DNA of 54,066 bases, from positions 1 through 54,066 of the forward strand of contig JAUCBJ010004747.1 of assembly GCA_032718475.1 (NCBI GenBank). Direction: 5' to 3'. Shown here one piece after another: positions 12,031-54,066 of the stretch; position 1 is the first letter of the stretch; each line of letters begins with the position of its first letter. The notes beneath the pieces are model-generated. The model was not told where the DNA came from and did not search any database. It saw only the letters and a program-made list of their open reading frames with translations. A program made the translations under genes and the position numbers. This stretch comes from Nemertoderma westbladi. Its lineage: Eukaryota > Animalia > Xenacoelomorpha.

Positions 12031-12245
12031 ATTTAATATTTATGTTGCCGCGTAGATGTGTGCGTGACAAATTAAAAATGGTTATTGACACAATTATGAT
12101 AGTTTATTTTACTTTATTCTTAAATTGATAATTTAATCGTTTTTTTTTAAGAAAACGAGTTTCGAATCTGGTAAAAATGCAAATTAATTTAGAAATGGAC
12201 AAAGAAAAATTTAAGATAGAAAATCATTAAGACTATATGAAGACT

Positions 12246-15655: not shown

Positions 15656-18600
15656 ATGGATGTCATTGCGGCTCAAGAAACTTGGTTGTACGACATAGAA
15701 AGTCGCTTTCTGTTATGCAAATTAAATATTGACTTCACATGTGTACATGTGTATACTCTGTCTGCACATTAATGGGAAATCCAGAAAGGAAACGCGGAGC
15801 CGGAGTGGTGGCGTTTCGGTACCGTACCAGTAAACTCACCAATATTTTCAAGCTTACAGGTTCAGGGGACGATATAACTGGATTCAAAGCCAATCTCAAG
15901 GGTTATTACTTGCCGTTTCTGCTACGTTTCTCGCTTTGCCCCAGATTCTAGCAAAAACAACACCCACTACGAATCCTTCTAAGGAAGAATGAGTTCTCTT
16001 CTTGCAGATCATACTGACTGTTTACCAATTATCGTGATGGATGCAAATGCGGATATCGGACCCCTTCAGGGGCCACGTTTCTGTCGACCTTCCGCTACAC
16101 AAAGGGGTTCCCGCTTTAATGAGTTTGTTGTTGGTAATCATTTAGTAGCAGTGGACACCCTGGATAAATTTACTGGACCTGCCACAACTTTTGTCGGCGC
16201 CCATGAGACCGGCATTGATCATATAGTAACATCTGAACTGGGTCTTTCGATATTGGGAAAAGGCAGTGTCTTAACACAACACAATCATAATCATGGTACT
16301 ATGTATCTGTCTGACCACCAACCCCTAGTCGCGACTTTTCGTATTCCCCCATCATCGCATACATATGACAACTGTAAGCAGGAACAATGCTCAAAGAAAC
16401 TCACCAGATTCAATTGGAACCGAGCCACACCACTTCATTTTTCTCAGTACCGATATATAGTTTCTGATAAATTCATGAATATACTAAATCCAGACTAAAC
16501 TGATATCCCATGGGATAAAGGTAAACTTAATTTCATTTCAAAGGAACTACAGGATATCATCTTTACATCATCTTTAAAATTCATTCCATTACATAAGACC
16601 GCAAAACAAACAAAAAATATCAGAATCAGGAATGACAGGCTCTTGGTACGCTCAAGAATAAAAAAGAAGCTATGCAAATTCTGGTTAACTAGTGGGAAAG
16701 ATAACAAAAGCAACCTGGGGAAAGCTTTAAAATCTTCAAAACGAAGCCTTCGACAACTCAAAAACTTCCTTGCTAACAACAAAGTCACGGGTGAGGTTCA
16801 AAAAGTCTTAGGGTCCCTTAAGAATGGTAGTAACAATTCTGGTGCAGAATAAACCCAGTTGTCCACAACCCCAGCTCATGACGCACAGTCTGCAATACGA
16901 AATTAATATGAAGGGAAGAGTGAAAACCATCTGCATGATAAACAACTAGAAGAGCAATTGTTTGCAACCTATAGAAACACTGACGCTGCATGTAACCTTA
17001 CCAGCCCACCATTATTCTCAGTAGTCACTGTTAAAGACAAATAATATTGTCTGCCAAAGATATAGCCCCGGATTACAACTCAATGGCTAGGCTACTGAAC
17101 ACATAATATTCTCTGATTCTGATATCATCTGCGGCGAATTAACAAAGATTTTCAACTCATGTATACGACTAAGAATAGTCCCAGAGTTATAGGGCTACAC
17201 ATTAATCAATCTTATGTATAAGGATAAACAACACAACCCACTGCACCCAAATTCATACAGACCCATTGCTTCAATCAGCATCTTCGACAAGATTTTCAAA
17301 GGAGTGATTCTCTCGAGTTTCTTGCTTGCCTTCCTATATCACCTACTCACTCAGGTCACTTACCAACCAAAATATGGCTCTGGTGTGGTATTAGCAGCTC
17401 TTCTAGAAAGTCTCGAAATAGAAAGAATGCGAGATCGAGTAGCTTCCTCTGTAAATTCGAAATTTCTTCGGCCTTCGACAATGTCCAATACCACCTCCTC
17501 TTTGAGAAACTTATCATGTTTATCAATCCTCACATTTGTCTGGTGTTACTCCATTATTTCCGCACAGGCATGTTATTCCTTAAGTTTGGAGACACAGTGG
17601 ATAGCGTTGGGACTAGAATGTTAAAGGGTCTAAAACAAGGTTCCTTGATCTCACCTATCTTATTTGTATTCTACAGCAGTGAAGCTTTGAATAAATTACA
17701 TGATGCTGGATTTGGATAACCACACGCAACTCTGAATTAATATTGTTTGCTATGCGGATGACATACTACCAATGGGCAGGAGTACCACTGAAATCAAGTT
17801 GATGTTAAAGATATTAATAAAGGAGTTGAACAAAATGGGCCTCGATGTTGAAAAGTCAAAGACAGAATGGTCATACTTGCGTGGGCGGGGCTGTGAGAAA
17901 GATCCAATACCATGTTTATTCAATGTAAACGGAACACTCCTCCCATCCACTACCATCTACTCCCATCCGCATATCGTTCCTCGGAGTGAAATTGAATGAA
18001 AAACCTGTAGACTGCCTTAAAAATTGTTTCAGAGTAATCAGCATTCTATCAGAGACATTCCATAGAAAGGGGTGGACATCACGATGGCTGTCACCAACAG
18101 TATTATCAGTTTTTTGGAATTCAATTGCTGTTCCTTCAATAGTTTATAAGGTACGATTCTCAATGGGTGCATTATCTGTCAAAAAAAAATATATATATAT
18201 ACACTCAGAGCACTAGGCCCTAAAATTAGTACAAGCCACTAGGGCCATAAAAAACAACCAAAAACACATAAACACAAAATAAACTAAAACCAAACATACT
18301 ACTGTACAATGCTCAACACACAGACGTGTATCACAACCCCACCCTAAACCTACCCATTCGTACACTAAATGATAGCTAATCTATACCGGACTAATCTACG
18401 GAGAGCATTATCATAATGTACTATAACAAATATTTAATTCGCCGTCACCCACCCCACAATAATTAATTTTTAATTAATTAACACGTATGGCCGGCATACG
18501 GGGTTACAGTGGTTTCTACAACACTGTATAATAGTTATTATTTGAGGCATGGTTGCCATTTCTGGCAGAGCACGGGAATAACGTTGTACTTTCCTATCAG

Positions 18601-29293: not shown

Positions 29294-29675
29294 ATTCTTG
29301 TAAGTTTTCCATGTTGCGTGACCTGGGTAGTTAAACCCAGCAGTTCCCTTAAAATTGGACACGATATAGTTTTGTGTTTATTGCTTTTGTTGCAAATTGC
29401 AGTCTCCTGATCCTTTCCATTAATTGTTATAATTTTCCAGTGTAATTAAAAAATGGCCACTTTATTACTAATTAATAATGGCAAAGCATATTAATTTAAT
29501 TTGAATAACCTAATAACCGTTTACAGTTTTTACTTTACCTACCACTATTATGGTTAATTAAATACCCATAAATAGTTAATCAACCCGCTATAATGTATCT
29601 TAAATAATCTCAAATTTTACATTGGAAATGTTAATTAAGTTTAAGTCATCCACTAAATGTTAATTAAGTTTGTCA

Positions 29676-30464
29676 TCAACTAATGACTGATATTAAAATA
29701 TCAACAAAGTCTGCAAAACTATCGCAGACCAAGTCCGGACTTTGACCGTCCGCAGTCCATTCGTCCCCACCGCGGTACTTCCCAGTCCGAACCAAAACGC
29801 CAGTCATCCCGAGTCGCATCGCCCCGAGCACATCATCCCGAACATCGTCCCCCACCATGGCCACTTCGCTCGCGTCCACCCCCAACCCGGAAACCGCTCG
29901 TCCGAAGAACTCCGGGTCCGGCTTCCCTATCGTGGTCGCGTCGCGGCCGGATGCGAACTCCAACGCGGAAACGAACGCCCCAACGCCTAGACGCAACCCG
30001 TCGGGACGCTGGAAGTAACGCGACCTGTTAGCGGCTACCAGCTCGGCGCCGTTATGGAGCAAACGAAAGGCCTCGTTTAATCTCTCGTAGTTAAACATCT
30101 CAGGGGCCAACCCGATTACAACGCAGTTGGGATCCACAGTGTCTATACCGCTCAACTCCTCCTTGGCTGTCTCTTTAAGAAGAAGTAACGGACGCAACTG
30201 TCGGCTAATCAAAAGTTCCTTTATGGCGACCAACGGCGTGTATAAATCATTGGGTTGGATGAAACCCTCAAACCCAATCCTAGCGAGTCTGGCAACTATG
30301 TGATTGGCTGATTCGTGGCTTGTGTTTGTAATGAACCGTATGGGTACTTTGTGTTGTCTCAACTTAGCCAGAGCTTCTAGACTCCCAGGAACCACAGCAT
30401 TCTCTACATGTAGAGTACCACTAAGATCTACCAACACCGCTTTTATTCTACGCAGATGCGACAT
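29676..30464 (-). CDS. HDHD2: HAD-like hydrolase domain-containing protein 2 (HAD IIA), 262 aa, intronless
   Basis: KAVLVDLSGTLH, RFITNT, PNCVVIGLAPE, GKP..FF, MVGDDVRDDV.GA...GM.GVLVRTGKYR; ATG at 30464. Confidence 0.93.
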   Translation of the reverse strand: MSHLRRIKAVLVDLSGTLHVENAVVPGSLEALAKLRQHKVPIRFITNTSHESANHIVARLARIGFEGFIQPNDLYTPLVAIKELLISRQLRPLLLLKETAKEELSGIDTVDPNCVVIGLAPEMFNYERLNEAFRLLHNGAELVAANRSRYFQRPDGLRLGVGAFVSALEFASGRDATTIGKPDPEFFGRAVSGLGVDASEVAMVGDDVRDDVLGAMRLGMTGVLVRTGKYRGGDEWTADGQSPDLVCDSFADFVDILISVIS

Positions 30465-31178
30465 CAATTGGATTACTCGCTGAATTGTTATACAAACTAA
30501 ATATCGTTAATATACTGTAAAATATACAAATAGTTTGGAATAATTTACATTTCAATACGAAGATAAATAGAATGTGCCGCTAATTGAACACTAAATCAAC
30601 CTATTTGTCAAGAATAATTCAGTACCAATGTTGTCACTGGTTCTGGTCTGGTATTGGTAGTTAAATGCGGAAACAATGAAACTTAAATATCACAAATAAT
30701 ACCGAAGTATAATTGCATTTTATTTCATCTTGTTCTTAATAAATATTTATTATAAATATTGATGATCTAATATTAAACCGCACCGATGTATTTTATACTG
30801 TGTTATATTTATTATTGTAGCTTTACACTGGTTAAGCTGGGGACCTTTTCATTTAATATTTAAATGTAAAATTTATTGTTGAAATGAAATTGAAATATTA
30901 TTTTTAATAAAACTAACAGACATACTTAATATGTAAACTGAATCGTTTTAGTACAACTAACTCATATTTAAATAACATGGAACTATTAACAAAAGGTACC
31001 GAAAAACTAAAACTATACCGCGGGGCCTCTAAAAATCGACGTACTTGGGGAATATTCCCCAGTGCGCACGTATTAGTTAACATACCCAACAAGCGGCCCC
31101 ATTACTTCAACTCCAACACACTACTGTTCAATATGTACAGTAGGATGGTTTATATGTTACTGTATGAGAAGTCATCCT

Positions 31179-31931
31179 CTATGCCTTCCCCACTTCATGG
31201 TCTATAGTTAGACTATCCCCCGCATGTTGTCTCCACTCCTCCATCCGCTGTTCCAACTCCCCCCGGTAGTGGCGTATCAACCCCTGAACGGGCCAGGCGG
31301 CCCCATCCCCCAGCGCACAGATGGTGTGACCCTCAATCTGTTTGCTGATCTCCCACAAGGAGTCTATCTCAGCCGGCCTCGCCTTTCCCTCCACCAACCT
31401 CCACATAGTTTGGTTCATCCAGCTGATTCCCTCCCGACACGGGGTGCACTGCCCGCACGACTCGTGTTCGTAGAAGGTAATGAGTCTGGCGATGGCGCGA
31501 ACAATATCCGTAGATTTATCCATTACAATCAACGCAGCGGTCCCTAGTGCCGATTGTTTGGCAACAAGGTCGTCGAAGTCCATAAGAACAGTGTCGCATA
31601 CCGATTTGGGTATAACTGGAGTAGAAGACCCCCCCGGTATGACCCCCAGCAGGTTGTCCCAACCGCCCCGTACACCCCCCGCGTGTCGTTCTATCAGCTC
31701 TCGCAACGGGATCGACATCTCTTCCTCCACCGTGCAGGGTTTATTCACGTGGCCCGAGATGTTGAACAACTTGGTACCCGAGTTCCTGGGACGCCCCAAC
31801 CCGAAGAACCAACTGCCGCCTCGTCGACAGATCGTCGGGGCCACAGCGACAGTCTCCACGTTGGCAACCGTCGTCGGGCAACCGAAGACGCCAACATCGG
31901 CCGGAAAGGGAGGCTTCAACCTGGGTTTGCC
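31179..31931 (-). CDS. NDUFV1: NDUFV1 exon 3 (complex I 51-kDa flavoprotein; Fe-S N3 motif)
   Basis: Acceptor TTCTTCTTCCAACAG|GGC; [49 protein letters not shown]; stop at 31179. Confidence 0.96.
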
Positions 31932-32274
31932 CTGTTGGAAGAAGAAGATCACAAGTATGTAATTGAATAACGAAAATAGAACGTATTGATCGAAAATAGA
32001 ACGTATTGGACTAATTCATACAAATACTGTTAAAATAAAGTTACAGCAATAATGTTGAGGGATGTCCTTAAACATTTTGGCGATTACTAAAGAGTAGGGA
32101 TTAAAGTGCATATAGCATAGAACATATAGCTTACTATTATGTATATGCACCACTTTGTGGTAATAGCATGAAATGATTCGGCGAAAGGGTGATTTAGTAA
32201 GGTGAATAACAGAAAATGTGTATCACCACGAAGTTTTGTATTAACTCCCTCCACCTCAAACAGTTTAACCTCAA

Positions 32275-35200
32275 GCTCTCTACCAATACGTTATATCTTT
32301 CCTACATACTTTACCTGTTTCTCGTCTCAGCTCTCTACCAATACGTTCTCTCTTTCCTACATACTTTACCTGTTTCTCGTCTCAGCTCTCTACCAATACG
32401 TTCTCTCTTTCCTACAAACTTTACCTGTTTCTCGTCTCAGCTCTCTACCAATACATTCTCTCTTTCCTACAAACTTTACCTGTTTCTCGTCTCAGCTCTC
32501 TACCAATACGTTCTCTCTTTCCTACAAACTTTACCTGTTTCTCGTCTCAGCTCTCTACCAATACGTTCTCTCTTTCCTACAAACTTTACCTGTTTCTCGT
32601 CTCAGCTCTCTACCAATACGTTCTATCTTTCCTACAAACTTTACCTGTTTCTCGTCTCAGCTCTCTACCAATACGTTCTCTCTTTCCTACAAACTTTACC
32701 TGTTTCTCGTCTCAGCTCTCTACCAATACGTTCTCTCTTTCCTACAAACTTTACCTGTTTCTCGTCTCAGCTCTCTACCAATACGTTCTCTCTTTCCTAC
32801 AAACTTTACCTGTTTCTCGTCTCAGCTCTCTACCAATACATTCTCTCTTTCCTACAAACTTTACCTGTTTCTCGTCTCAGCTCTCTACCAATACATTCTC
32901 TCTTTCCTACAAACTTTACCTGTTTCTCGTCTCAGCTCTCTACCAATACGTTCTCTCTTTCCTACAAACTTTACCTGTTTCTCGTCTCAGCTCTCTACCA
33001 ATACATTCTCTCTTTCCTACAAACTTTACCTGTTTCTCGTCTCAGCTCTCTACCAATACGTTCTCTCTTTCCTACAAACTTTACCTGTTTCTCGTCTCAG
33101 CTCTCTACCAATACGTTCTCTCTTTCCTACAAACTTTACCTGTTTCTCGTCTCAGCTCTCTACCAATACATTCTCTCTTTCCTACAAACTTTACCTGTTT
33201 CTCGTCTCAGCTCTCTACCAATACGTTCTCTCTTTCCTACAAACTTCACCTGTTTCTCGTCTCAGCTCTCTACCAATACGTTCTCTCTTTCCTACAAACT
33301 TCACCTGTTTCTCGTCTCAGCTCTCTACCAATACGTTCTCTCTTTCCTACAAACTTTACCTGTTTCTCGTCTCAGCTCTCTACCAATACATTCTCTCTTT
33401 CCTACAAACTTCACCTGTTTCTCGTCTCAGCTCTCTACCAATACGTTCTCTCTTTCCTACAAACTTCACCTGTTTCTCGTCTCAGCTCTCTACCAATACG
33501 TTCTCTCTTTCCTACAAACTTTACCTGTTTCTCGTCTCAGCTCTCTACCAATACATTCTCTCTTTCCTACAAACTTTACCTGTTTCTCGTCTCAGCTCTC
33601 TACCAATACATTCTCTCTTTCCTACAAACTTTACCTGTTTCTCGTCTCAGCTCTCTCTCTACCAATACATTCTCTCTTTCCTACAAACTTTACCTGTTTC
33701 TCGTCTCAGCTCTCTACCAATACATTCTCTCTTTCCTACAAACTTTACCTGTTTCTCGTCTCAGCTCTCTACCAATACATTCTCTCTTTCCTACAAACTT
33801 TACCTGTTTCTCGTCTCAGCTCTCTACCAATACATTCTCTCTTTCCTACAAACTTTACCTGTTTCTCGTCTCAGCTCTCTACCAATACATTCTCTCTTTC
33901 CTACAAACTTTACCTGTTTCTCGTCTCAGCTCTCTACCAATACGTTCTATCTTTCCTACAAACTTTACCTGTTTCTCGTCTCAGCTCTCTACCAATACAT
34001 TCTCTCTTTCCTACAAACTTTACCTGTTTCTCGTCTCAGCTCTCTACCAATACGTTCTCTCTTTCCTACAAACTTTACCTGTTTCTCGTCTCAGCTCTCT
34101 ACCAATACGTTCTCTCTTTCCTACAAACTTTACCTGTTTCTCGTCTCAGCTCTCTACCAATACATTCTCTCTTTCCTACAAACTTTACCTGTTTCTCGTC
34201 TCAGCTCTCTACCAATACGTTCTCTCTTTCCTACAAACTTCACCTGTTTCTCGTCTCAGCTCTCTACCAATACGTTCTCTCTTTCCTACAAACTTCACCT
34301 GTTTCTCGTCTCAGCTCTCTACCAATACGTTCTCTCTTTCCTACAAACTTTACCTGTTTCTCGTCTCAGCTCTCTACCAATACATTCTCTCTTTCCTACA
34401 AACTTCACCTGTTTCTCGTCTCAGCTCTCTACCAATACGTTCTCTCTTTCCTACAAACTTCACCTGTTTCTCGTCTCAGCTCTCTACCAATACGTTCTCT
34501 CTTTCCTACAAACTTTACCTGTTTCTCGTCTCAGCTCTCTACCAATACATTCTCTCTTTCCTACAAACTTTACCTGTTTCTCGTCTCAGCTCTCTACCAA
34601 TACATTCTCTCTTTCCTACAAACTTTACCTGTTTCTCGTCTCAGCTCTCTCTCTACCAATACATTCTCTCTTTCCTACAAACTTTACCTGTTTCTCGTCT
34701 CAGCTCTCTACCAATACATTCTCTCTTTCCTACAAACTTTACCTGTTTCTCGTCTCAGCTCTCTACCAATACATTCTCTCTTTCCTACAAACTTTACCTG
34801 TTTCTCGTCTCAGCTCTCTACCAATACATTCTCTCTTTCCTACAAACTTTACCTGTTTCTCGTCTCAGCTCTCTACCAATACGTTCTCTCTTTCCTACAA
34901 ACTTTACCTGTTTCTCGTCTCAGCTCTCTCTCTACCAATACATTCTCTCTTTCCTACAAACTTTACCTGTTTCTCGTCTCAGCTCTCTACCAATACATTC
35001 TCTCTTTCCTACAAACTTTACCTGTTTCTCGTCTCAGCTCTCTACCAATACATTCTCTCTTTCCTACAAACTTTACCTGTTTCTCGTCTCAGCTCTCTCT
35101 CTACCAATACATTCTCTCTTTCCTACAAACTTTACCTGTTTCTCGTCTCAGCTCTCTCTCTACCAATACATTCTCTCTTTCCTACAAACTTTACCTGTTT

Positions 35201-36694
35201 CTCGTCTCAGCTCTCTACCAATACGTTCTCTCTTTCCTACAAACTTTACCTGTTTCTCGTCTCAGCTCTCTACCAATACATTCTCTCTTTCCTACAAACT
35301 TTACCTGTTTCTCGTCTCAGCTCTCTACCAATACGTTCTCTCTTTCCTACAAACTTTACCTGTTTCTCGTCTCAGCTCTCTACCAATACGTTCTCTCTTT
35401 CCTACAAACTTTACCTGTTTCTCGTCTCAGCTCTCTACCAATACATTCTCTCTTTCCTACAAACTTTACCTGTTTCTCGTCTCAGCTCTCTACCAATACA
35501 TTCTCTCTTTCCTACAAACTTTACCTGTTTCTCGTCTCAGCTCTCTACCAATACATTCTCTCTTTCCTACAAACTTTACCTGTTTCTCGTCTCAGCTCTC
35601 TACCAATACATTCTCTCTTTCCTACAAACTTTACCTGTTTCTCGTCTCAGCTCTCTCTCTACCAATACATTCTCTCTTTCCTACAAACTTTACCTGTTTC
35701 TCGTCTCAGCTCTCTACCAATACATTCTCTCTTTCCTACAAACTTTACCTGTTTCTCGTCTCAGCTCTCTACCAATACATTCTCTCTTTCCTACAAACTT
35801 TACCTGTTTCTCGTCTCAGCTCTCTACCAATACATTCTCTCTTTCCTACAAACTTTACCTGTTTCTCGTCTCAGCTCTCTCTCTACCAATACATTCTCTC
35901 TTTCCTACAAACTTTACCTGTTTCTCGTCTCAGCTCTCTACCAATACGTTCTCTCTTTCCTACAAACTTTACCTGTTTCTCGTCTCAGCTCTCTACCAAT
36001 ACATTCTCTCTTTCCTACAAACTTTACCTGTTTCTCGTCTCAGCTCTCTACCAATACGTTCTCTCTTTCCTACAAACTTTACCTGTTTCTCGTCTCAGCT
36101 CTCTACCAATACATTCTCTCTTTCCTACAAACTTTACCTGTTTCTCGTCTCAGCTCTCTACCAATACGTTCTCTCTTTTCTACAAACTTTACCTGTTTCT
36201 CGTCTCAGCTCTCTACCAATACGTTCTCTCTTTCCTACAAACTTTACCTTTTCCTCGTCTCAGCTCTCTACCAATACGTTCTCTCTTTCCTACAAACTTT
36301 ACCTGTTTCTCGTCTCAGCTCTCTACCAATACATTCTCTCTTTCCTACAAACTTTACCTGTTTCTCGTCTCAGCTCTCTACCAATACATTCTCTCTTTCC
36401 TACAAACTTCACCTGTTTCTCGTCTCAGCTCTCTACCAATACGTTCTCTCTTTCCTACAAACTTTACCTTTTCCTCGTCTCAGCTCTCTACCAATACGTT
36501 CTCTCTTTCCTACAAACTTCACCTGTTTCTCGTCTCAGCTCTCTACCAATACGTTCTCTCTTTCCTACAAATTTTACCTGTTTCTCGTCTCAGCTCTCTA
36601 CCAATACGTTCTCTCTTTCCTACAAACTTTACCTGTTTCTCGTCTCAGCTCTCTACCAATACGTTCTATCTTTCCTACAAACTTTACCTGTTTC
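32275..36694 (-). repeat. 55-bp minisatellite, about 80 copies (~4.4 kb), filling NDUFV1 intron 2 (31932-36687)
   Basis: Sense-strand unit GTAAAGTTTGTAGGAAAGAGAGAA(C/T)GTATTGGTAGAGAGCTGAGACGAGAAACAG; occasional 59-bp variants with an extra AGAG. Confidence 0.97.
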
Positions 36695-36837
36695 CCCTCT
36701 AAACTTTCTATCAACGCAGTCTCTTCTCCACATATATACGCTCCGGCCCCACGATGGATAAACACATCGAAATCGTATCCGGATCCGCAAGCGTTGGTAC
36801 CGATCAGTCCTGCGGCGTAGGCCTCATTCACAGCAAC
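36688..36837 (-). CDS. NDUFV1: NDUFV1 exon 2 (150 bp, 50 aa)
   Basis: Acceptor CCCTTCCGTCACAG|GTT, donor AAACAG|GTAAAG; encodes VAVNEAY...[22 protein letters not shown]; phase 0 at both ends. Confidence 0.95.
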
Positions 36838-36993
36838 CTGTGACGGAAGGGAGGGGGCGGGGAGGGTAAACAGATAAGCACATTATATGTAACAGAATAT
36901 GGTTGCTGAAATATTAAAATAGACTCTTCCATTTACCGAGACAACCAAAATCGGGCTTTGAAGAATGAGCGGATAAGACACCTATGATATGAT

Positions 36994-38486
36994 TAGGGAT
37001 GTCCCGGAATTCCGTTCCGGCCGGAATTCCTGCGGTTTTTGCCCGATTCCGGTTCCGGTCGGAATTGCCGGAATGGGGTCAATTCCGGCCGGAATTTTAC
37101 CGGAATTACAAGGTTCATATCTAGATTAATAGTTGCAATTAGTTTGTTAAATTATTATCAACATTATATATTTTTTAAACATTATTACCAATTAATTTAA
37201 GATACTTTTCAACACTGGCAAAAAAGTATAGAAATAAAGTTTTCTTCGACCGTTAGAGCTAACATTTGGATGCAAGGCATAGATGCCCCCTGGTTAGCCC
37301 CTACAAACCATTCGTGCCGAATCGAAAACTGCCTTGGCCCACATACAGGGATCGAACCCACGACCTCCAGATAGATTGGAAATCAATGCAACCACTACAC
37401 CAAGGTGGAACCTAATTAACCTATGTATCGAGGAAAAATTCACAACCACCCTTTTTAGTTTATTAATCACAGTAACCAATCACAGGCCTCTTGTCGGATA
37501 TAACACATGAGTCATGTCCATGTGTCAAAAGATGGAACATGGGACATAATCACTTTCGACTCATCGGTCGTAACTTACGATTTACCAGTGGAGACGCTCC
37601 CATTGAAACAAATGTGTTCCATAATTTATTCTGACTAAGACTACATAAGACTTACCAGTGGAGCACGGGCCTCATTGATTTTATATTATTTTACTTTGAT
37701 TTAATTATTAAATAATATGATAATTACAGGAGGCTAAATAAATTGCTAACCTTGTAAAGTTAGCAATGAAACTCGATTAACGATTAACACAATTACAATT
37801 ACTACTTTAACCTAAAACTAATATAAATATAAAATGTTATTACAACACGTACAGGTCCTGCGAGTTGTCGTTAGTTCAGTCCAGCGCCGTAGGTGCTGCA
37901 TAATATAGTAGTTTTATTTATATTTACAGCAAATCCATTTCTTACCATAAATCTATTTATTCCCAGCAATAATTAACTGTAACGTGTAGGCCTACTATTT
38001 GCCTCGTTTATTGTTTTGGTTCGAATAACATGTCACTGTAACATGCTCCTTTTCCTTAAAGACACCAGTATATTGCACCAATGGACCCAGTGACGCGAAA
38101 CCGTAGGTTTTTGGTTAACGTAGGTTTTTAGGTATGAGTCTAAAGGCTAAAAACTCAGCTTTTGGCCAAGGTTGTCGATTTTAGAAAAAAAATTATATTG
38201 AATAATGCCGAAGTACCACCCAGTCCCCATAATAGGCCATAACGGGCCAGGCCATTCTCCACTCCACTCACCTTAATTGTAATTCCCCCCAAGGTTGTGA
38301 TTCATCTCATTATCAAACTTGGCTTTAGATATTAAAAAAAATCATTTGTCTCACAAAAAATTATAATATTTCCTGGGTATTTCACTAAATTATAGAAAAT
38401 TCCGGTTCCGGCCGGAATATTTCGGCATGTTGAATTCCGGTTCCGGTTCCGGCCGGAATCAAAATATCGATTCCGGGACATCCCTA
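36994..38486. mobile_element. Non-autonomous hAT DNA transposon (1493 bp) in NDUFV1 intron 1
   Basis: TIR TAGGGATGTCCCGGAAT / ATTCCGGGACATCCCTA; 8-bp TSD GATATGAT at 36986-36993 and 38487-38494; subterminal TTCCGG/CCGGAA repeats. Confidence 0.93.
37295..37408 (-). mobile_element. tRNA-derived SINE 5' fragment inside the hAT element
   Basis: A-box TGGTGTAGTGG and B-box GGGTTCGATCCC; homologous to the element at 41245. Confidence 0.75.
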
Positions 38487-38546
38487 GATATGATAATAAG
38501 TTTTACAAACAAAAATGCAGTGTCTAATACAGTACAGTAGGCCAAC

Positions 38547-39077
38547 CTGTTGGTTGTTTGTTTCGTTGTAAAACTCTCCCCGGATGTATATATAGGCGGC
38601 CCGTGCGCCCATTGCAGCTCCAGCAACCAGACACCCCTCGACCAGTTTGTGGGGGTCGTGTCTCATAATCTCCCGGTCCTTGCATGTCCCGGGTTCCCCC
38701 TCGTCCGCGTTCACCACCAGGAACTTGGGCCTACCGTCGGGAGGTTTCTTCATGAATCCCCACTTCATCCCGGTAGGAAACCCAGCCCCGCCGCGCCCGC
38801 GCAACCCGGAGGTCTTGATCTCCCTGAGGATCCAATCATCTCCTTTCTCGATAATTTCCTTGGTTTTGTACCAGTCGCCCCGCGCCAACGCCCCCTTCAG
38901 TCGCCAGTCGTGACGGCCGTAGAGGTTAGTGAATATCCGATCGTCGTCGTGAAGCGGTCCGAACTTGGTTTTGGCGGGTGGCGTTTCAGTCGCCGCAGAA
39001 TTACCGCTCTGGAATCTCGAGTTGCCTACTAATTTACCGATTTTTCGCACTGCATTTCCAACAGCAACTTGATACAT
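38547..39077 (-). CDS. NDUFV1: NDUFV1 exon 1; spliced product 477 aa
   Basis: Presequence-like N-terminus, [54 protein letters not shown]; donor CAG|GTTGGC. Confidence 0.96.
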
Positions 39078-40149
39078 TTTGATTCAGATTTCTGATTCTT
39101 ATAATATAACATAAGATTAGATATTGAGGTACCGGTACAGCAGCACGCGATTTTAACTCGTTTGCTTCACCTCAAGCTGTCAAGCGTCAACTCATCAATT
39201 TCTTGTCTCTATCAGTCTAAATGCTTGATGTAATAAATTTAATACTGTAATATGATAATAAACGTAATGTCTTTCTGTCTGTCTGCGTTTGCATATATCT
39301 GCAGATCTGTATATCAGTATATACATCAGTATATCGACTATCGAGTACCCCTGCCTCGAGAGTACCGGACCGGTATGCGCTTTCGAACGGTCAATATTAT
39401 AAATCTACCTTCAGTCAGACCTTACTGCTTTACAAATAATACCTTTAATACTGTAATAAAACCGGTACCTTTAAATTTAAAATTTAATTTTTTTTACAAA
39501 TGATAAACTTTATGGTAACGGTAACTGATTAATTTCAGAATTTAGGCCTACTACAGTGTGTAGGCCTACTATAAAACATAACACAGTAGCAGCTTAGTCT
39601 GTTAGTAGCCTATGCGTTATTGCAATTACAGGCGCCACTCAGATAGATACCGTAGTCTACTACTGACTGACTGGTAACGTACCTGTCAGCCTGTCCTATA
39701 CCTGTATACTGCTGTATGCTGTACCGGTACTGTATACAATTTATACTGTCATATCAGCATATGAAACTGAACTACGGAATTCGAATCCCACTTCTGCACT
39801 TGAACAGGAACAATGAACATCCACTCTTCAACTTGTCGGATTACTGGATTAGACCTACAGGATTATGCAACAAAACTTCAGATATTCTTTCAGTCTTTTG
39901 CACTTATCGCTATCGGGGTCCTCCCTTCAGCCAGCCCTTCCCCAAAGAAAGTAAAGTCAGTGCAAACTGCAAAGTACCTAGGCCTACAGACTGACAGACC
40001 TAACTGTCTGACTGTAATTTGCTAACTTGCTGTAATGACAGAATGACAACTCCTGAACTCCATCAGTCTGTCAGTCAGTCAGTCTATCATCTGTAGTCAG
40101 TCAGTCAGTCTCAGTCAGTCAGTGTACCAGTGTACTGCCAATGAGAATA

Positions 40150-42113: not shown

Positions 42114-43128
42114 GGTTCCCCGGCTTTAGATCCTAGAGTACCTTAGATCCTGAACGAACTAAGATATTGGGTGAACATACTAGATCCGTACCATACGAAC
42201 TTAGATCCTCAACATACGAACTTAGATCCTCAACATACGAAGTTAGATCCTTCCCATACGAACCTAGATCCTTCCGATACGAACTTAGATCCTTTCCCAT
42301 ACGAACATAGATCCTTCCCATACGAACATAGATCCTTCCCATACGAACATAGATCCTTCCCATACGAACATAGATCCTTCCCATACGAACTTAGATCCTT
42401 CCCATACGAACTTAGATCCTTCCCATAGGAATTTAGATCCTCAACATACGAACTAAGATCCCACCTTGCATGTATTGCTGTACCGTAGCTGTGTTAATGT
42501 GAAATGTCATTCCCATAGGCCAACAGACCTTACTGTAAATATTATCACGCTTGAAGGGAAGCGAACTTAGATCCTACCACTAATACATTGCAATGAATTG
42601 GCTATTAATTGGTTATATAATTGATTATACAGTAGTTTGTTGGTGAGTCACTGATCGCAACTACTTTAGAGTGTATGATACAGTATGACTTATTTGCATT
42701 ACATCATTATAAGTAGTTTTATATGCTTAATGAAACACACAAATATACATCACTATAATATCGATGGCCAACGCACAGTATACGTGGGATCTAAGTTCGC
42801 TTCTCCTCTAGCGTGTGCTAAGGAATTTGTATAAATTGGGATCTAAGTTCACCCTGTAGTTAGGATCTAAGTTCACCTACAGTACTTTAGTTAGGATCTA
42901 AGTTAACCTAGTTAGGATCTAAATTCCCCCGGACTGCCGGATAGGATCTACAGTAAGTTCACCTAGTTAGGATCTAAGTTCACCCAGATAGGATCTCAGT
43001 TCAGCTAGTTAGGATCTTAGTTCACCTAGTTAGGATCTAAGTTCACCCAGATTGGATCTATGTTCAGAAAGATCTAAGTTCATCGAAGTCAGGCCAGTTG
43101 CAGGATCTAATTCTAAGTTCGTTTTACC
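42114..43128. mobile_element. Foldback-type DNA transposon (Mutator/FB- or Merlin-like, 1015 bp) with arms built of ~21-bp tandem repeats
   Basis: 9-bp TSD GCATGGTGC at 42105-42113 and 43129-43137; GGT...ACC ends; GAACTTAGATCC repeats on the left and inverted GGATCTAAGTTC repeats on the right. Confidence 0.85.
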
Positions 43129-43313: not shown

Positions 43314-45224
43314 ATGGAAGTGCTACCAAAGCAAGATATACAACAACAACATGATGATGTCTATACAGCTCAACTATATAAAATTGAGATCGAATTGGAA
43401 CAACTGGATGCTGAGATCAATAAACTAAAATCGAAGAGGAAATCTCTAAACGTAAGAAAACTCGAAATTCTTAAATTAGTGGAGAAAGAAAATGAAATCG
43501 ACGTGGCGAAATGGTCTCTTAGCAACTACCCGTGGTCGGGTAAACTTAATGAGAATCTCCGCACTGTGTTTAAACTAGATAATCTTCGCGGGTTACAGTT
43601 AGAAACACTGAACGCCACACTCAGCGGCAGGGATTGTATCCTATTAATGCCAACCGGGGGAGGCAAAAGTTTATGTTTCCAACTCGCTAGTCTACTTTGT
43701 AAAGGTATAACTCTAGTCATCTCTCCCCTCGTGTCTCTTATGGAGAACCAACTAGAAACCCTTCGTCGCTTATCAATCTCAGCCGACTTTCTAACGTCTT
43801 ACAGCTCGAAGGAACACATAAAGTCCACCCATGATGCCATTGCTGGCCAGAGTAGCGGGTTGAAGTTACTCTATGTAACGCCGGAGCGTTTGGCCAAGTC
43901 TAAACGGTTTATGTCGGCACTGGAAAAGTGCTACAGTCGAGGAATGTTGGACAGACTCGTGGTAGACGAGGTCCACTGCTGCTCGCAATGGGGGCACGAC
44001 TTCCGTCCCGATTACAAGGTATTGGGGATACTGAAGCGGCAGTTTCCGGACACACCGATACTCGGGCTGACAGCCACGGCGAACTCGGCTCTCTTAGACG
44101 ACGTGCGAACCATGCTGAACATTCCCAATTGCGTTGTGTTTAAAGGCGCTTTCGATCGCCCAAACTTATTTTATGAAGTTCGACCGAAAGCTGACAACCA
44201 GACACTTCTGTGCGACGAGTTAGCCGGCCTGTGTCTGGAGGAGTTTGTCGAGCAATCCGGCATCATCTACTGCTTCTCTAAGAAGGAGGCGGTGTCGCTT
44301 AGTGCGGGACTGCGGGAGCGGGGTGTGGCGGCAGGCTGTTACCACGCCGATGTGGAGCCGACGGAGAAGTCCAGAGTTCACAGAGAGTGGCTGAACGGCA
44401 TACTTCAGGTTGTCGTAGCGACAGTTGCGTTCGGTATGGGTATCGATAAACCGGATGTACGGTTCGTCATCCATGGCAGTCTCTGTAAATCCATCCCGAA
44501 CTTCTACCAAGAGAGCGGCCGCGCAGGGAGGGATGCCGCGCCGGCGTTGTGTCGCGTTTACTACCGGATGAGCGATGTCTTCCGTTACTCCTCCTATATC
44601 TGTAACTCCCGCGTGGAGGTTAAGAACCTCTATGACTCGGCGTCATACTGCCTGGAGAGTCGCGTTTGCCGCAGACAACTTATAGCTCGACACTTCGACA
44701 GCGACGAGGCGACACAATGTCGCGGGATGTGCGACAATTGCCGCTACAACGACGGCGACACGCAGTCGAGAGATGTCGCGGAAACGGCGCGGGTTATTGT
44801 CCGGGTTATCGAGACTGCTGGGTTGAAGGAGAAGCGACTGACGGCCCAGATGGTGATGGACGCTGTCTTCGGACGGGGTCCTTTCCGGGTTGCTAGGATA
44901 CCGAATCTATCTGTGGTCCAGTGCGAGAGACTCATAGTGCAGTTGGTGTGCTCGGAAATTCTGTCGGAATACTTCCATTACTCAGCTTATAGCGTTATCA
45001 GTTACCTACAGGCCGGCCCCAAGGCCGTATTGTTAGACCAACCCTCCTACAGGGTGGAACTCGTGTTGCCACAGGAACGGGATCCGGTTGCTATAGGCAA
45101 ACTTAACTACATAGCAACTGGGGGTAAACGTGTTACTAGCGAAGAGAGTCGGAGTAAACCTAAGCGAGTTAAACGGGATAGCGAACAGCGAAATACAAGC
45201 GATGTTGTTTTAATAGATAGTTGA
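43314..45224 (+). CDS. RECQL: ATP-dependent DNA helicase Q1 (RecQ1), 636 aa, intronless
   Basis: N-terminal coiled coil and W-x4-YPWS; MPTGGGKSLCFQL, YVTPERLAKSKRFMS, DEVHCCSQWGHDFRPDY, ATVAFGMGIDKPDVRFV, YQESGRAGRD, Zn-binding CRR...CDNC, EYFHYSAYSVISY hairpin. Confidence 0.96.
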   Translation: MEVLPKQDIQQQHDDVYTAQLYKIEIELEQLDAEINKLKSKRKSLNVRKLEILKLVEKENEIDVAKWSLSNYPWSGKLNENLRTVFKLDNLRGLQLETLNATLSGRDCILLMPTGGGKSLCFQLASLLCKGITLVISPLVSLMENQLETLRRLSISADFLTSYSSKEHIKSTHDAIAGQSSGLKLLYVTPERLAKSKRFMSALEKCYSRGMLDRLVVDEVHCCSQWGHDFRPDYKVLGILKRQFPDTPILGLTATANSALLDDVRTMLNIPNCVVFKGAFDRPNLFYEVRPKADNQTLLCDELAGLCLEEFVEQSGIIYCFSKKEAVSLSAGLRERGVAAGCYHADVEPTEKSRVHREWLNGILQVVVATVAFGMGIDKPDVRFVIHGSLCKSIPNFYQESGRAGRDAAPALCRVYYRMSDVFRYSSYICNSRVEVKNLYDSASYCLESRVCRRQLIARHFDSDEATQCRGMCDNCRYNDGDTQSRDVAETARVIVRVIETAGLKEKRLTAQMVMDAVFGRGPFRVARIPNLSVVQCERLIVQLVCSEILSEYFHYSAYSVISYLQAGPKAVLLDQPSYRVELVLPQERDPVAIGKLNYIATGGKRVTSEESRSKPKRVKRDSEQRNTSDVVLIDS

Positions 45225-45373: not shown

Positions 45374-46030
45374 AACACGTTCGTTTCGTGAGTCCTTAGT
45401 CGAGTCCTTGTCCATGATGAGCCTATGCGTAGAGGTACAATTAGTGAACCGTCTAGTCATTCGCCACCTAGCGGTCGACAGAAGAACAATAAAAGTCTGT
45501 CTGTGTATATAATTTCCTATCTCAGCCGAACGTTCCTATCTCAGCCAAACGTTCCTATCTCAGCCAAACGTTCCTATCTCAGCCGAACGTTCCTATCTCA
45601 GCCGAACGTTCCTATCTCAGCCGAACGTTCATATCTCAGCCGACCGTTCCTATCTCAGACGAACGTTCCTATCTCAGCCAAACGTTCCTATCTCAGCCGA
45701 ACGTTCATATCTCAGCCGAACGTTCCTATCTCAGCTGAACGTTCCTATCTCAGCCGAACGTTCATATCTCAGCCGAACGTTCCTATCTTAGCTGAACGTT
45801 CATATCTCAGCCGAACGTTCCTATCTCAGCTGAACGTTCATATCTCAGCCGAACGTTCCTATCTCAGCCGAACGTTCCTATCTCAGCCGAACGTTCATAT
45901 CTCAGCCGAACTTTCATCTCAGCCGAACGTTTCTATCTCCGCTATTTCTAAACGAAATTGTCTGTACGAAATGAGTGTGAAATTATCCCACCAATTAATA
46001 GTTACGAAACGGAGATTCGTGGGAATTTGT
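45374..46030 (+). repeat. 19-bp tandem repeat CTCAGCCGAACGTTCCTAT (about 22 copies, 45514-45940) inside a probable HINE-like element
   Basis: The array is directly visible; flanks show an AACACGTTCG start, GTCTGTCTG, and a short IR TTCGTTTCGT / ACGAAACGGA. Confidence 0.75.
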
Positions 46031-46636: not shown

Positions 46637-47266
46637 TTACGTAAAGTAGCTCCATACGAGGTACATTATAACGCAAGTTATAACCATTCCCGCAAACAAT
46701 AACACCTTGTCCTGTTTAGTCCGACCCTCTATTAGTTTCATTACGGAGTTCGATAACCCCAGAGTGGATATAACCAGGAGAATTCGTCGTTGAGCGTTCG
46801 CTAAAGTCCGTCTCTGATTGGATAGACTCCCTATGATAGACCCCCCGCTGCCCAGCAACGAGTCCATCTCTTTGTGGGCGCTGTGTAATTTAGTATTGTG
46901 TGTCAATCCTTGGTCTATGAGAATCGATGTGGAATCGTTGGTGGTAAACCTCGTCCGTAACAACTCCTCGCGATCGTCCAATAAACGAACGCGTTCCTGT
47001 TGCCTCGCTACCGCTCTATCCAGACTCAGCTGGAGGTGTCTGAGTTCCTGTTTGACCTGGTCGATTCGTTGTTTTACCAGCTGCTTCCGGTGCGGTGGTT
47101 CTTTGTTGAGGTAGACGTCGAGTCGGTCGCAATTACCGTCGACCTGGGAGAATATACGCGATAGATTCTCGCGCGAACTCGTGGATTCCACGTCCGTTTC
47201 AAACAAACACAAATGATTCCGAGCTTCGAGTAACAGTCGAGTTGTTTGCTGCAAAGTGGACTCCAT
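46637..47266 (-). CDS. GOSR2: Golgi SNAP receptor complex member 2 (membrin/GS27), 209 aa, intronless
   Basis: MESTLQQT start, CDRLD..LNKEPP, REELLRTRFTTND, Qb-SNARE motif ending TLGLSNSVMKLIEGR..QDK, C-terminal TM helix. Confidence 0.93.
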   Translation of the reverse strand: MESTLQQTTRLLLEARNHLCLFETDVESTSSRENLSRIFSQVDGNCDRLDVYLNKEPPHRKQLVKQRIDQVKQELRHLQLSLDRAVARQQERVRLLDDREELLRTRFTTNDSTSILIDQGLTHNTKLHSAHKEMDSLLGSGGSIIGSLSNQRRTLANAQRRILLVISTLGLSNSVMKLIEGRTKQDKVLLFAGMVITCVIMYLVWSYFT

Positions 47267-48589: not shown

Positions 48590-49011
48590 AGCATAAGGTC
48601 AAATGATGGTATGCTTGAGCATGTGGACGACTTCTATTCTGTTACCTGGGATCATGGATCCGGAAGTTAGATGAGGACCTCCGAATATGTAAGGGAAAGG
48701 CATGGGCAGCCTTGAATGGGCTTTCTAGGATTTGGAATTGGAAGTCACCGATAATTAATCGGAAACTTAAGGTCCGATTATTTAGAGCAGCAGTAGTTCC
48801 AGTACTTCTCCAGACACTATATAACATTGGAGGTGTCTCATTGGTTCCCCCAAGCCTGACACTAGAACGAAATCGCCTCTGCTTTGCAGGACATTGCTTT
48901 CGCCGCGAGGATCAGCCAGTGCATAATCTTGTACTTTGGCAGCCTCATGGAGTGAATAAGCATGGTGGACAGCCCATGACTTTCTTGAGACGCATCTTAA
49001 GTAGTAGATAA
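48590..49011 (+). mobile_element. Degenerate RTE LINE 3' fragment
   Basis: VDDF..YLGSW, GKAWAALN.L..IW, LKVRLFRA.V..VL, RLCFAGHCFR..DQP...LVLWQP. Confidence 0.8.
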
Positions 49012-50002: not shown

Positions 50003-50833
50003 ATGGAGTCCCCAATAAATTCGGCACCGAAAACACCAACTGAGACAGAAACATGTAGTTTAACTCAATCAAACAGCATAGGTGAACAGTTGCTTATATT
50101 GGAGTGTAAGCTTGCTAGCGATCTATTGTCTCTGAACTACTATCCTATGGTCTCCCATATTTACAATCCATTAAACTACGCATTGGATATTCATAAAAAG
50201 TTTATTATGGAATATTGTAATTCCGAGAAGCGGGTAATATTCGTTGGAATGAACCCAGGTCCCTTCGGAATGGGACAGACTGGAATTCCTTTTGGTGACG
50301 TTAAATCCGTCCGGAATTTCTTCAGAATACATGGGGACGTCGGTAAACCCACCAATGAGCACCCGCGTAGACAGGTTTACGGGTTGGGCTGCACGCGATG
50401 CGAAGTTAGTGGTTCTCGACTGTGGAGATTAGTGGAGGATATATGTGGGACATCGGAACAATTCTTTTCCACTTCTTTAGTCTATAATGTTTGCCCTCTT
50501 CTGTTTTTGAGTCCAACTGGTACTAACGTAACTCCAAACAGTCTCCCCAGAGATACGAAACTTAAACTCAATGAGCTGTGCGTTGATACTTTAATTCATG
50601 TTATTCGTTTATTCGCTGTGGAGCGTGTTGTTGGTATCGGTAGGTACGCCTGGGATGTATCGAACCGGTTGTTAAGGAGGGTTCGCGGACTTTCTCACGT
50701 GCAGGTTGACTTTCTGATGCATCCGTCTCCTTTAAATCGATCTGCTAATAAACAGGGGTGGGAGATTGTTGCGCGGAGGCAGTTAGAGGAATCCGGTATT
50801 CTAGGTATAATAAAAAACATGGATGGGAAATAA
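50003..50833 (+). CDS. SMUG1: Single-strand selective monofunctional uracil-DNA glycosylase, 276 aa, intronless
   Basis: IYNPLNYA, FVGMNPGPFGMGQTGIPFG, EHPRR.V.GL.C...EVSG.RLW, NVCPLLF, VGIGRYA, MHPSP. Confidence 0.95.
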   Translation: MESPINSAPKTPTETETCSLTQSNSIGEQLLILECKLASDLLSLNYYPMVSHIYNPLNYALDIHKKFIMEYCNSEKRVIFVGMNPGPFGMGQTGIPFGDVKSVRNFFRIHGDVGKPTNEHPRRQVYGLGCTRCEVSGSRLWRLVEDICGTSEQFFSTSLVYNVCPLLFLSPTGTNVTPNSLPRDTKLKLNELCVDTLIHVIRLFAVERVVGIGRYAWDVSNRLLRRVRGLSHVQVDFLMHPSPLNRSANKQGWEIVARRQLEESGILGIIKNMDGK

Positions 50834-51689: not shown

Positions 51690-54066
51690 CTAAAATTTGA
51701 CTCAAATAGGTGTTAGAGTCCCATATATAGGTTGATTTTGTCCAAAATAGCCTGTAGCTTTATCAAAATTATTTCAAATAGTTTATAAATGTAAAGGAAT
51801 ACTGAAAAGAATATCGACTTCATATCATAGCTTTAATTCCAATTTGTCCCAAATAGGTTATTTATGTCCCATATATGGTGTTTTATGTCCCATACAGGGA
51901 GTTTTTATCCCAAATAGCATGTAACATTCTCAAAATGATTTTACATAGTTTATAAATATAATGGAAATACTCAAAAGAAAATATAATTCACTATCATAGC
52001 TTTAATTTAAATTTGTCCCAAATAGGTTGTTTTTGTCCCATATAGGGTGTTTGTGTCCCATATAGGGTATGAAGTGCTTATAATCATTTCAAATAGTTTC
52101 GAAATGTAATGGAATACTCAAAAGACTATAGAATTCACTATCATAGCTTTAATTTAAATTTGTCCCAACTAGGTTGTTTATGTCCCATATAGGGTGTTTG
52201 TGTCCCATATAGGGAATTTGTGTCCCAAATTGCGTGTCATTTTCTGAAAATGATTTTACATAGTTTATAAATATTATGGAATACTCAAAAGAAAATATAA
52301 TTCACTATCATAGCTTTAATTTAAATTTGTCCCAAATAGGTTGTTTATGTCCCATATAGGGTGTTTGTGTCCCATATAGGGTGTATGTGTGCCAAATAGC
52401 GTGTGACTTTCTCAAAATGATTTTACATACCGGTAGTTTATAAATATAATGGAATACTCAAAATAAAATATAATTCACTATCATTGCTTTAATTTCAATT
52501 TGTCCCAAATAGGTTGTTTTTGTCCCATATAGGGTGTTTGAGTCCCATATAGGGTGTGAATTGCTTATACTGATTTTAAATAGTTTCGAAATGTAATGGA
52601 ATACTCAAAAGAATATAGAATTCACTACCATAGCTTTAATTTCAATTTGTCCCAAATAGGTTGTTTTTGTCCCATATAGGGTGTTTGTGTTCCATATAGG
52701 GTGTTTGTGTCCCAAATAGCGTGTGACTTTCTCAAAATGATTTTAAATAGTTTCTAAATCTCATGGAATACTCAAAAGAATATAGAATTCACTACCATAG
52801 CTTTAATTTCAATTTGTCCCAAATATGTTGTTTATGTCCCATATAGGGTGTTTGTGTCCCATAAAGGGTGTTTGTGTCCCAAATTGCGTGTGACTTTCTC
52901 AAAATGATTTTACATAGTTTATAAATATAATGGAAATACTCAAAGGAAAATAGAATCCACTATCATAGTATTAATTTAAATTTGTCCCAAATATGTTGTT
53001 TGTGTCCCATATAGGGTGTTTGTGTCCCGTATAGGGTGTGAAGTGCTTATAATGATTTCAAATAGTTTCGAAATGTAATGGAATACTCAAAAGAAAATAG
53101 AATTCGCTATCATAGCTTTAATTTAAATTTGTCCCAAATATGTTGTTTATGTCCCATATAGGGTGTTTGTGTCCCATATAGGGTGTTTGTGTCCCAAATT
53201 GCGTGTGACTTTCTCAAAATGATTTTACATAGTTTATAAATAAAATGGACATACTCAAAGGAAAATAGAATCCACTATCATAGTTTTAATTTAAATTTGT
53301 CCCAAATAGGTTGTTTGTGTCCCATATAGGGTGTTTGTGTCCCAAATAGCGTGTGGCTTTCTCAAAATGATTTTAAATAGTTTCTAAATCTCATGGAATA
53401 CTCAAAAGAATATAGAATTCACTACCATAGCTTTAATTTAAATTTGTCCCAAATAGGTTGTTTTTGTCCCATATAGGGTGTTTGAGTCCCGTATAGGGTG
53501 TGAATTGCTTATAATGATTTCAAATATTTTCTAAATGATAATGGAATACTCAAAAGAATGAATGACATATAGAATTCACTATCATACATAGCTTTAATTT
53601 AAATTTGTCCCAAATAGGTTGTTTATGTCCCATATAGGGTGTTTGTGTCCCATATAGGGTGTTTGTGTCCCAAATAGCGTGTGACTTTCTCAAAATGATT
53701 TTACATAGTTTATAAATATAATGGAATGCTCAAAAGAAAATATAATTCACTATCATAGCTTTAATTTAAATTTGTCCCAAATAGGTTGTTTTTGTCCCAT
53801 ATAGGGTGTTTGTGTCGCATATAGGGTGTTTGTGTCCCAAATTGCGTGTGACTTTCTCAAAATGGTTTTACATAGTTTATAAATAAAATGGACATACTCA
53901 AAGGAAAATAGAATCCACTATCATAGTTTTAATTTAAATTTGTCCCAAATAGGTTGTTTGTGTCCCATATAGGGTGTTTGTGTCCTGTATAGGGTGTGAA
54001 GTGCTTATAATGATTTCAAATAGTTTCGAAATGTAATGGAATACTCAAAAGAAAATAGAATTCGCT
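51690..54066. repeat. Satellite array with ~147-bp and ~167-bp monomers built on 20-bp subrepeats; runs off the window
   Basis: The anchor TTCACTATCATAGCTTTAATT recurs near 51987, 52134, 52301, 52474, 52621, 52788, 52955, 53103, 53270 and 53418; subrepeat TGTCCCATATAGGGTGTTTG. Confidence 0.93.

What the first reader, a model, noticed from the sequence alone, without database searches (positions are those of the whole stretch)
32275..36714. NDUFV1 intron 2 is a ~80-copy array of its own splice junction: about 80 decoy 5' splice sites, each unit a GT...AG pseudo-intron
Seen: the 55-nt unit equals the first 28 nt of the intron plus a diverged copy of the last 27 nt of exon 2. The unit end TTGGTAGAGAGCTGAGACGAGAAACAG matches the exon end TTGATAGAAAGTTTAGAGGGGAAACAG at 21/27 positions. 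Most junctions therefore recreate the true donor context GAAACAG|GTAAAGTTTG (some are GTGAAG), so units begin with GT and end with CAG, the recursive-splicing (ratchet) signature. Use of the second donor frameshifts the mRNA, and any later donor includes the in-frame TAG at 36598-36600. Known: NDUFV1 is an essential core subunit of complex I. Inference: the spliceosome must either pick one donor out of ~80 near-identical ones or remove the array stepwise, and array length could tune expression through NMD. Caveat: the units are purine-rich and have no polypyrimidine tract, which argues against their AGs being canonical acceptors.
Basis: partly seen in the sequence, partly recalled or inferred. 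Interest (0 to 1): 0.8.

Follow-up and report, generated by a model that had tools for sequence, protein, structure and literature searches.

The report
Splice-donor minisatellite in NDUFV1 intron
In an animal's gene for a core respiratory-chain protein (NDUFV1), a 55-base piece spanning an exon end and its splice signal is repeated 80 times into the next intron, a repeat type already known from human and lancelet genes, and the cell likely uses the first signal, so the spare copies are probably harmless.

Summary
In detail: intron 2 (36687-31932, minus strand) opens with 80 donor sites 55 nt apart, and the unit end matches the exon end at 21/27. It is a junction-spanning minisatellite of the kind described for human F7, IFI6, CBS, LMNB2 and PDGF and as lancelet "mirages". 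In F7 only the first donor was used, whatever the copy number tested (PMC1557585). Recursive splicing fails its motif test: 0 of 77 YAG|GT sites has a pyrimidine tract, and AG|GT is just the donor consensus. The NMD idea is weak: donor 2 puts the stop in the last exon. The intron position occurs in other eukaryotes, so the array probably grew inside an old intron. One new detail: two antisense copies of part of the unit lie 40-78 nt before the acceptor (1 of 5000 shuffles), but they do not single out donor 1. No RNA could be examined, so donor use is inferred. The scan has noted this class before in other genomes and many times, often far larger, elsewhere in this genome (unchecked notes). Verdict: real, known kind, low interest.

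The parts
38544..39077 (-). NDUFV1 exon 1 (coding part, ATG at 39077)
   Evidence: ORF and Pfam Complex1_51K; 534 nt, joins in frame
36838..38543 (-). Intron 1 (1706 nt); strong acceptor, 17 of 20 pyrimidines; holds an element with 17-nt terminal inverted repeats at 36994-38486
36688..36837 (-). Exon 2 (150 nt), ends ...ESLEGKQ; its last 27 nt are the source of the exon-like half of the unit
36682..36690 (-). Authentic donor CAG|GTAAAG (first intron base 36687)
   Evidence: the only donor that gives the conserved EGKQ|GKPR join; 111 of 120 homologs carry EG.QGKPR
32274..36694 (-). 55-nt minisatellite, 79.9 copies, 79 decoy donors; 75% purine
36598..36600 (-). TAG in unit 2, in frame with exon 2; ends any product of donors 3-80 at 257 aa
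32975..34852 (-). Units 34-67, with a 16-unit block (34-49) repeated exactly at units 52-67
   Evidence: 0 of 2000 shuffles of unit order reach 16; maximum 10
32261..32314 (-). Unit 80: boundary unit whose end is a more diverged exon-end copy with a dead donor (CTG|TT in place of CAG|GT)
   Evidence: alignment; the 14 nt beyond the TRF edge match the exon end modestly, 386 of 20,000 shuffles
31971..32009 (-). Two tandem antisense copies (20-nt period) of unit positions about 14-32, lying 78-62 and 57-40 nt before the acceptor
31932..31951 (-). Pyrimidine tract and acceptor CAG of intron 2 (15 of 20 pyrimidines, no other AG in the last 40 nt)
31179..31931 (-). Exon 3, last coding exon (GKPR... 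to stop)

Best explanation
This is a minisatellite whose unit spans the exon 2/intron 2 junction of NDUFV1 and repeats the donor 80 times, and the spliceosome likely uses the first donor and removes the whole 4.8-kb intron in one step, which would make the 79 copies tolerated passengers. Shown: the anatomy, the intact 478-aa frame through donor 1, the lack of acceptor signals in the units, and unit-order patterns typical of tandem turnover. Inferred origin: an old intron first gained a diverged copy of the exon end 55 nt downstream (a relic survives in unit 80); misalignment between exon end and that copy then made a unit carrying the live donor; unequal exchange amplified it, including one step of about 18 units. 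Inferred splicing: exon 2 is defined from its strong upstream acceptor to the first donor met, as in F7. A small leak to donor 2 or 3, as in IFI6 and CBS, is plausible and would give dead 309-aa or 257-aa products.
For: Same architecture as F7 IVS7, where only the most upstream donor is used, downstream copies work only when upstream ones are mutated, and copy number (1-6, 8-12) had no effect (PMC1557585). Lancelet mirages do not disturb splicing and spare their boundary units from homogenisation (PMC3087553); here the unit-1 variant at position 20 recurs in unit 80, and unit 80 is the most diverged. Exon 2's acceptor has 17 of 20 pyrimidines; donors 4 and later would make exon 2 315 nt or longer. 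No sign of selection on the decoys: 9 variable sites, 3 in the donor 9-mer (P=0.15), none in GT (P=0.70). The 16-unit repeated block fits unequal exchange. An intron at the same codon is present in 7 of 8 fetched eukaryote loci, 52-213 nt long.
Against: No transcript of this gene was examined, so donor use is inferred from other genes. The F7 tests used at most 12 copies in mammalian cells. IFI6 and CBS do use two pseudo-sites. Donor 2 has no stop upstream of it, gives a 205-nt exon, and is predicted more open than donor 1 (mean pairing 0.34 against 0.56). The antisense element near the acceptor is not explained by neutral drift of the array. The relic-copy reading of unit 80 has only modest support (386 of 20,000 shuffles against the exon, and a similar 182 of 20,000 against the unit).
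Confidence: 0.78

Rival explanations
1. RNA bridge: the two antisense copies near the acceptor pair with array units, loop out the intron and help pick a donor or mask the nearest decoys.
For: 18 of 19 match to unit 1, 14 nt exact; 1 of 3000 shuffles of the 339-nt tail; best match outside the array among 1976 tiles, score 31 against 27 for the best unrelated tile. 1 of 5000 shuffles of the last 90 nt. Predicted pairing with the array 0.5-0.96. Intron 1's ends pair far more weakly (-14.2 against -33.4 kcal/mol). RNA bridges are a known device (PMC10790352).
Against: All unit types pair within -27 to -35 kcal/mol; unit 79 and the 59-nt units pair better than unit 1. Unit 1's Boltzmann share is 1.2%, or 0.3% with loop cost. 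The commonest unit type matches weakly (210 of 5000 shuffles). 17 of 1000 shuffles and 5 of 1090 background windows pair as well by energy. The local fold is not unusual (z -0.78). The pairing would also cover the branch and pyrimidine region. The unit-1 variant may simply be the ancestral state kept at the array edge.
Confidence: 0.08
2. Recursive (ratchet) removal: donor 1 splices to an internal CAG, regenerates a donor, and the array is cut out in steps.
For: 77 YAG|GT sites exist; any donor-1-to-internal-CAG step would be harmless. Recursive sites occur in introns of a few kb, and some sites reported by other studies lack the pyrimidine tract (PMC10156609 Table 1). A 52-nt intron exists at this position in locus L001, so size alone does not forbid it.
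Against: 0 of 77 sites has five pyrimidines in reach; longest run 3; no TNAY in the unit tested. 4 of 20 pyrimidines and 8 competing AGs per unit, against 15-17 of 20 and none at this gene's real acceptors. The exon junction complex suppresses regenerated sites after splicing (PMC8184009 abstract).
Confidence: 0.05
3. Rheostat: more copies divert more transcripts to decoy donors and NMD, tuning complex I level.
For: Donors 4-80 would place a stop 75 nt or more before the last junction. All 79 decoys keep GT.
Against: Copy number did not change donor choice in F7. Known leaks go to the nearest two sites, which exist at any copy number and would escape junction-dependent NMD here (rule recalled). 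Keeping GT is expected by chance (P=0.70).
Confidence: 0.04
4. The intron itself was born by tandem duplication of the last 52 nt of exon 2, which begin with GT and end with CAG.
For: The whole unit can be aligned to the exon's last 52 nt with three gaps; the intron-side 28 nt of unit 79 match at 33 of 5000 shuffles.
Against: Units 1, 2 and 80 match at 548, 227 and 115 of 5000. An intron at the same codon exists in 7 of 8 fetched loci. Parallel gain at a CAG|G site is not excluded.
Confidence: 0.03
5. The array is largely an assembly or amplification artefact.
For: The exact 16-unit repeat could be a misjoin, so the true count might be about 62. No reads were examined.
Against: 12 unit types with recurring shared variants, clean flanks, a diverged boundary unit and an intact reading frame. 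An artefact could change the count but not create this variant pattern.
Confidence: 0.03

Closest known systems
Human F7 intron 7 37-bp VNTR (PMC1557585; parts 1-4 of 6 of the text read)
   Same: First unit spans the exon/intron boundary; identical donors repeat into the intron; one downstream acceptor.
   Different: 5-9 copies against 80; 4 exon bases in the unit against 27; F7 donor use was tested, here it is inferred.
Human IFI6 (6-16), CBS intron 13, LMNB2 and PDGF intron 4 minisatellites (seen only as summarised in the PMC1557585 introduction)
   Same: Repeated donors, 10-25 copies; first donor used alone (LMNB2, PDGF) or with the two nearest pseudo-sites (IFI6, CBS).
   Different: Fewer copies; that summary mentions no antisense copy near the acceptor.
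Lancelet 'mirage' minisatellites: Adh3, globins BflGb6 and BflGb9, troponin C, PGBD5 (PMC3087553, 6 passages; PMC3902484, 1 passage)
   Same: Tandem copies of an exon-intron boundary in an invertebrate; concerted evolution with boundary units excluded; splicing not disturbed.
   Different: 3-6 units in BflGb6 against 80 here; here the exon-like half is 22% diverged from the exon while units are 97% alike.
Recursive splice sites (PMC10156609; 12 passages)
   Same: YAG|GT inside an intron.
   Different: The high-confidence set has a pyrimidine tract before YAG; none of the 77 sites here does.
RNA bridges, such as SF1 (PMC10790352; 4 passages)
   Same: Complementary stretches near a donor and near an acceptor.
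   Different: Here one side is present 80 times, so the pairing has no unique partner.

Membership tests
Junction-spanning minisatellite (F7 type, 'mirage') | Tandem array whose first unit spans an exon-intron boundary | tested here: met
   array edge 7 nt inside exon 2; exon match extends to 27 nt
Junction-spanning minisatellite (F7 type, 'mirage') | Splice signal repeated in the units | tested here: met
   79 of 79 downstream junctions keep AG|GT
Junction-spanning minisatellite (F7 type, 'mirage') | Concerted evolution with boundary units left out | tested here: met
   97% matches; unit 80 most diverged; repeated 16-unit block
Junction-spanning minisatellite (F7 type, 'mirage') | Normal mRNA made from the exon-adjacent site | not testable with these tools
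   no RNA run was listed
Junction-spanning minisatellite (F7 type, 'mirage') | Length polymorphism between alleles | not testable with these tools
   one haplotype only; no genome held
Recursive splice site | YAG|GT | tested here: met
   77 sites
Recursive splice site | Pyrimidine tract, Y5+N0-4YAGGT | tested here: not met
   0 of 77
Recursive splice site | Lariats or intermediates at the site | not testable with these tools
   no RNA data
RNA bridge | Complementarity beyond chance near both splice sites | tested here: met
   1 of 3000 and 1 of 5000 shuffles for unit 1
RNA bridge | Pairing specific to the used donor | tested here: not met
   unit 1 share 0.3-1.2%
RNA bridge | Conservation or compensatory change | not testable with these tools
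   no close relative of the locus was found
Intron gained by tandem exon duplication | Intron position absent from other lineages | tested here: not met
   same position in 7 of 8 fetched loci

The most novel reading that the evidence does not exclude
The two antisense copies before the acceptor are a docking site that pairs with array units, so that the 80-donor intron folds back on itself and donor choice, or stepwise removal, in an essential complex I gene is set by RNA pairing and by copy number.
Probability: 0.07. Interest if true: 0.7.

Novelty: new member of a known kind. Interest (0 to 1): 0.17.

Why it matters
As a single locus it adds a larger, invertebrate example to a known class, and a natural test of whether first-donor choice still holds with 79 near-identical competitors in a housekeeping gene. 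The antisense element gives one concrete, mutable feature to test. The larger question is not this locus but why this genome appears, by other agents' unchecked notes, to grow arrays at many splice junctions.

Tried and rejected
RNA evidence: no RNA holder was listed for 29600-32260; this is not evidence either way, and no reads were laid. No whole genome is held, so single-copy status and unit copies elsewhere in the genome are untested. No protein identical to exon 3 among the 120 best listed of about 8,000 candidates scored in each of two searches (best identity 86%); 0 of 6 neighbour proteins found by exact look-up. RECQL's best hits are 44-51% and spread over many animal phyla, so I did not place the animal. 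Rfam: 0 matches in 31900-39200. The 339-nt tail has no convincing copy elsewhere in the window (one 13-nt hit, E 0.62). The other three splice junctions of the gene show no direct copy in 150 nt of adjacent intron. Idea that the antisense element selects donor 1: rejected. Intron birth by exon duplication: rejected as unlikely. Three searches for newer VNTR-splicing papers returned 0 papers, so recent human examples may be missing; a search on intron-end pairing listed 2 off-topic papers. No supplements were read.

Full report
Gene and array. The minus strand carries a three-exon NDUFV1: exon 1 39077-38544, exon 2 36837-36688, exon 3 31931-31179. Joined, they give one 478-aa frame with the glycine-rich and cysteine motifs in place; Pfam and homologs agree. 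Intron 2 is 4756 nt: a 55-nt array from 36694 to 32274 (79.9 copies, 97% matches) and a 342-nt tail. There are 80 donor sites, 67 of them CAG|GTAAAG like the true one. The 21/27 match between unit end and exon end is right; without the 7 shared edge bases it is 14/20, reached by 39 of 200,000 shuffles.

Is it recursive splicing? A unit starts with GT and ends with CAG only because the donor consensus is MAG/guragu (PMC1557585). The motif used to find recursive sites, Y5+N0-4YAGGT (PMC10156609), is met by 0 of 77 YAGGT sites in the intron. The array is 75% purine, its longest pyrimidine run is 3, and the unit tested has no TNAY. A unit has 4 of 20 pyrimidines and 8 extra AGs before its CAG; the gene's two real acceptors have 17 and 15 of 20 and no extra AG. 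Against my reading: that paper's table shows that many sites reported by other methods lack the tract, so rare use cannot be excluded.

What decoy use would give. Donor 2: a 309-aa product with the stop 191 nt into the last exon. Donor 3: 257 aa, stop 20 nt before the last junction. Donor 4 onward: stop 75 nt or more before it, with exon 2 at 315 nt or longer. By the 50-55 nt rule (recalled, vertebrate) the two nearest decoys would escape junction-dependent NMD; many invertebrates use other NMD cues (recalled), so this weakens but does not close the idea. Decoys show no sign of being purged or kept: 9 variable sites, 3 in the donor 9-mer (P=0.15), none in GT (P=0.70).

Origin. A pattern search of metagenome contigs for this exon end followed by GT gave 8 loci. 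Seven have a GT-AG intron of 52-213 nt followed by GKPR in frame; L003 ends before an acceptor; L004 and L008 have the same intron, so there are six distinct cases. It argues against birth of the intron from an exon duplication, which a weak whole-unit alignment had suggested. Unit 80 ends in a more diverged exon-end copy with CTG|TT where the donor would be; the part beyond the TRF edge has modest support (386 of 20,000 shuffles). I infer an old copy first, then a misalignment that put the live donor into the unit, then amplification. Units 34-49 recur exactly as 52-67 (0 of 2000 shuffles), which fits unequal exchange, though a misjoin in assembly could give the same.

At 32009-31971, 78-40 nt before the acceptor, lie two tandem antisense copies of unit positions about 14-32. 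The match to unit 1 is 18 of 19 with 14 nt exact (1 of 3000 tail shuffles, best of 1976 tiles outside the array; 1 of 5000 local shuffles). Folding predicts pairing with the array (0.5-0.96). But all unit types pair within -27 to -35 kcal/mol, unit 1's share is 0.3-1.2%, the commonest unit type matches only weakly (210 of 5000), and the local fold is not unusual (z -0.78). It most likely is a relic of an inverted copy between the ends of the once-short intron. It could matter for splicing but cannot pick donor 1 by pairing strength.

Mechanism. Most likely exon 2 is defined from its strong acceptor to the first donor transcribed, and the intron is removed in one piece (inferred). In human F7, downstream copies of the donor are functional yet silent; inactivating sites in turn activates the next most upstream one; 1-6 or 8-12 copies gave the same choice; only perfect-consensus sites competed (PMC1557585). 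The decoys here match the 9-nt consensus at 6-7 positions, no better than donor 1. IFI6 and CBS leak to the two nearest sites, so a small leak is plausible.

Known relatives and novelty. Human F7, IFI6, CBS, LMNB2 and PDGF and lancelet mirages define the class. The locus meets the three sequence features I could test; splicing outcome and polymorphism were not testable. Earlier notes of this scan report the class in sharks, an annelid and a comb jelly, and many times on other pieces of this genome, with up to about 2,100 copies and, where RNA was seen, mostly the exon-adjacent site in use. I did not check those notes; they gave me the term 'mirage' and context, not evidence. One of them reports use of an internal variant site, which runs against a strictly silent array. 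Verdict: real, new member of a known kind, interest 0.17.

Noticed in passing
window 29679-30467 (-), 43314-45221 (+), 46640-47266 (-), 50003-50830 (+): Four neighbouring housekeeping genes (HAD hydrolase, RECQL helicase, V-SNARE, uracil-DNA glycosylase family) are single uninterrupted ORFs, and NDUFV1 has only two coding introns: an intron-poor animal genome. The names HDHD2, GOSR2 and SMUG1 would be my recall, not a call result.
   Followed up: partly
window 36994-38486: Element in intron 1 with perfect 17-nt terminal inverted repeats and internal TTCCGG repeats, a likely non-autonomous DNA transposon that fills most of the intron.
   Followed up: no
window 38499-38513 and 38561-38575: A short inverted copy of the end of exon 1 lies about 30-45 nt into intron 1 (13 of 15; 41 of 3000 shuffles, one of 8 tests); weak, but it echoes the antisense copy in intron 2.
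   Followed up: partly
window 38544-38561 (-): Exon 1 ends ETNNQQ where the eight commonest homolog patterns have E-A/S-S-N/T-L/M/V-Q/N: an unusual substitution just before the intron 1 donor, which is also weak (CAG|GTTGGC).
   Followed up: no
window 42181-42461, 42954-43066, 45514-45939, 51736-54063: Other minisatellites (21, 21 and 19 nt; nested 20/147-169/315 nt) flank RECQL and the window end, outside the coding frames: the region is repeat-prone in general.
   Followed up: no
window 5477-9273 (+), 13498-15449 (+), 15983-17719 (+), 48619-49011 (+): LINE-like retrotransposon frames (endonuclease- and reverse-transcriptase-like by eye), one nearly whole and several broken.
   Followed up: no
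window 11374-12039 (-): A 218-aa cysteine-rich ORF with a hydrophobic start, a Thr-rich stretch and a hydrophobic end, no Pfam hit; looks like a secreted or GPI-anchored protein.
   Followed up: no
window 32193-36820 (+): The array's antisense strand is stop-free in all three frames (about 1,500 codons each), a by-product of its pyrimidine-rich composition rather than a gene.
   Followed up: no
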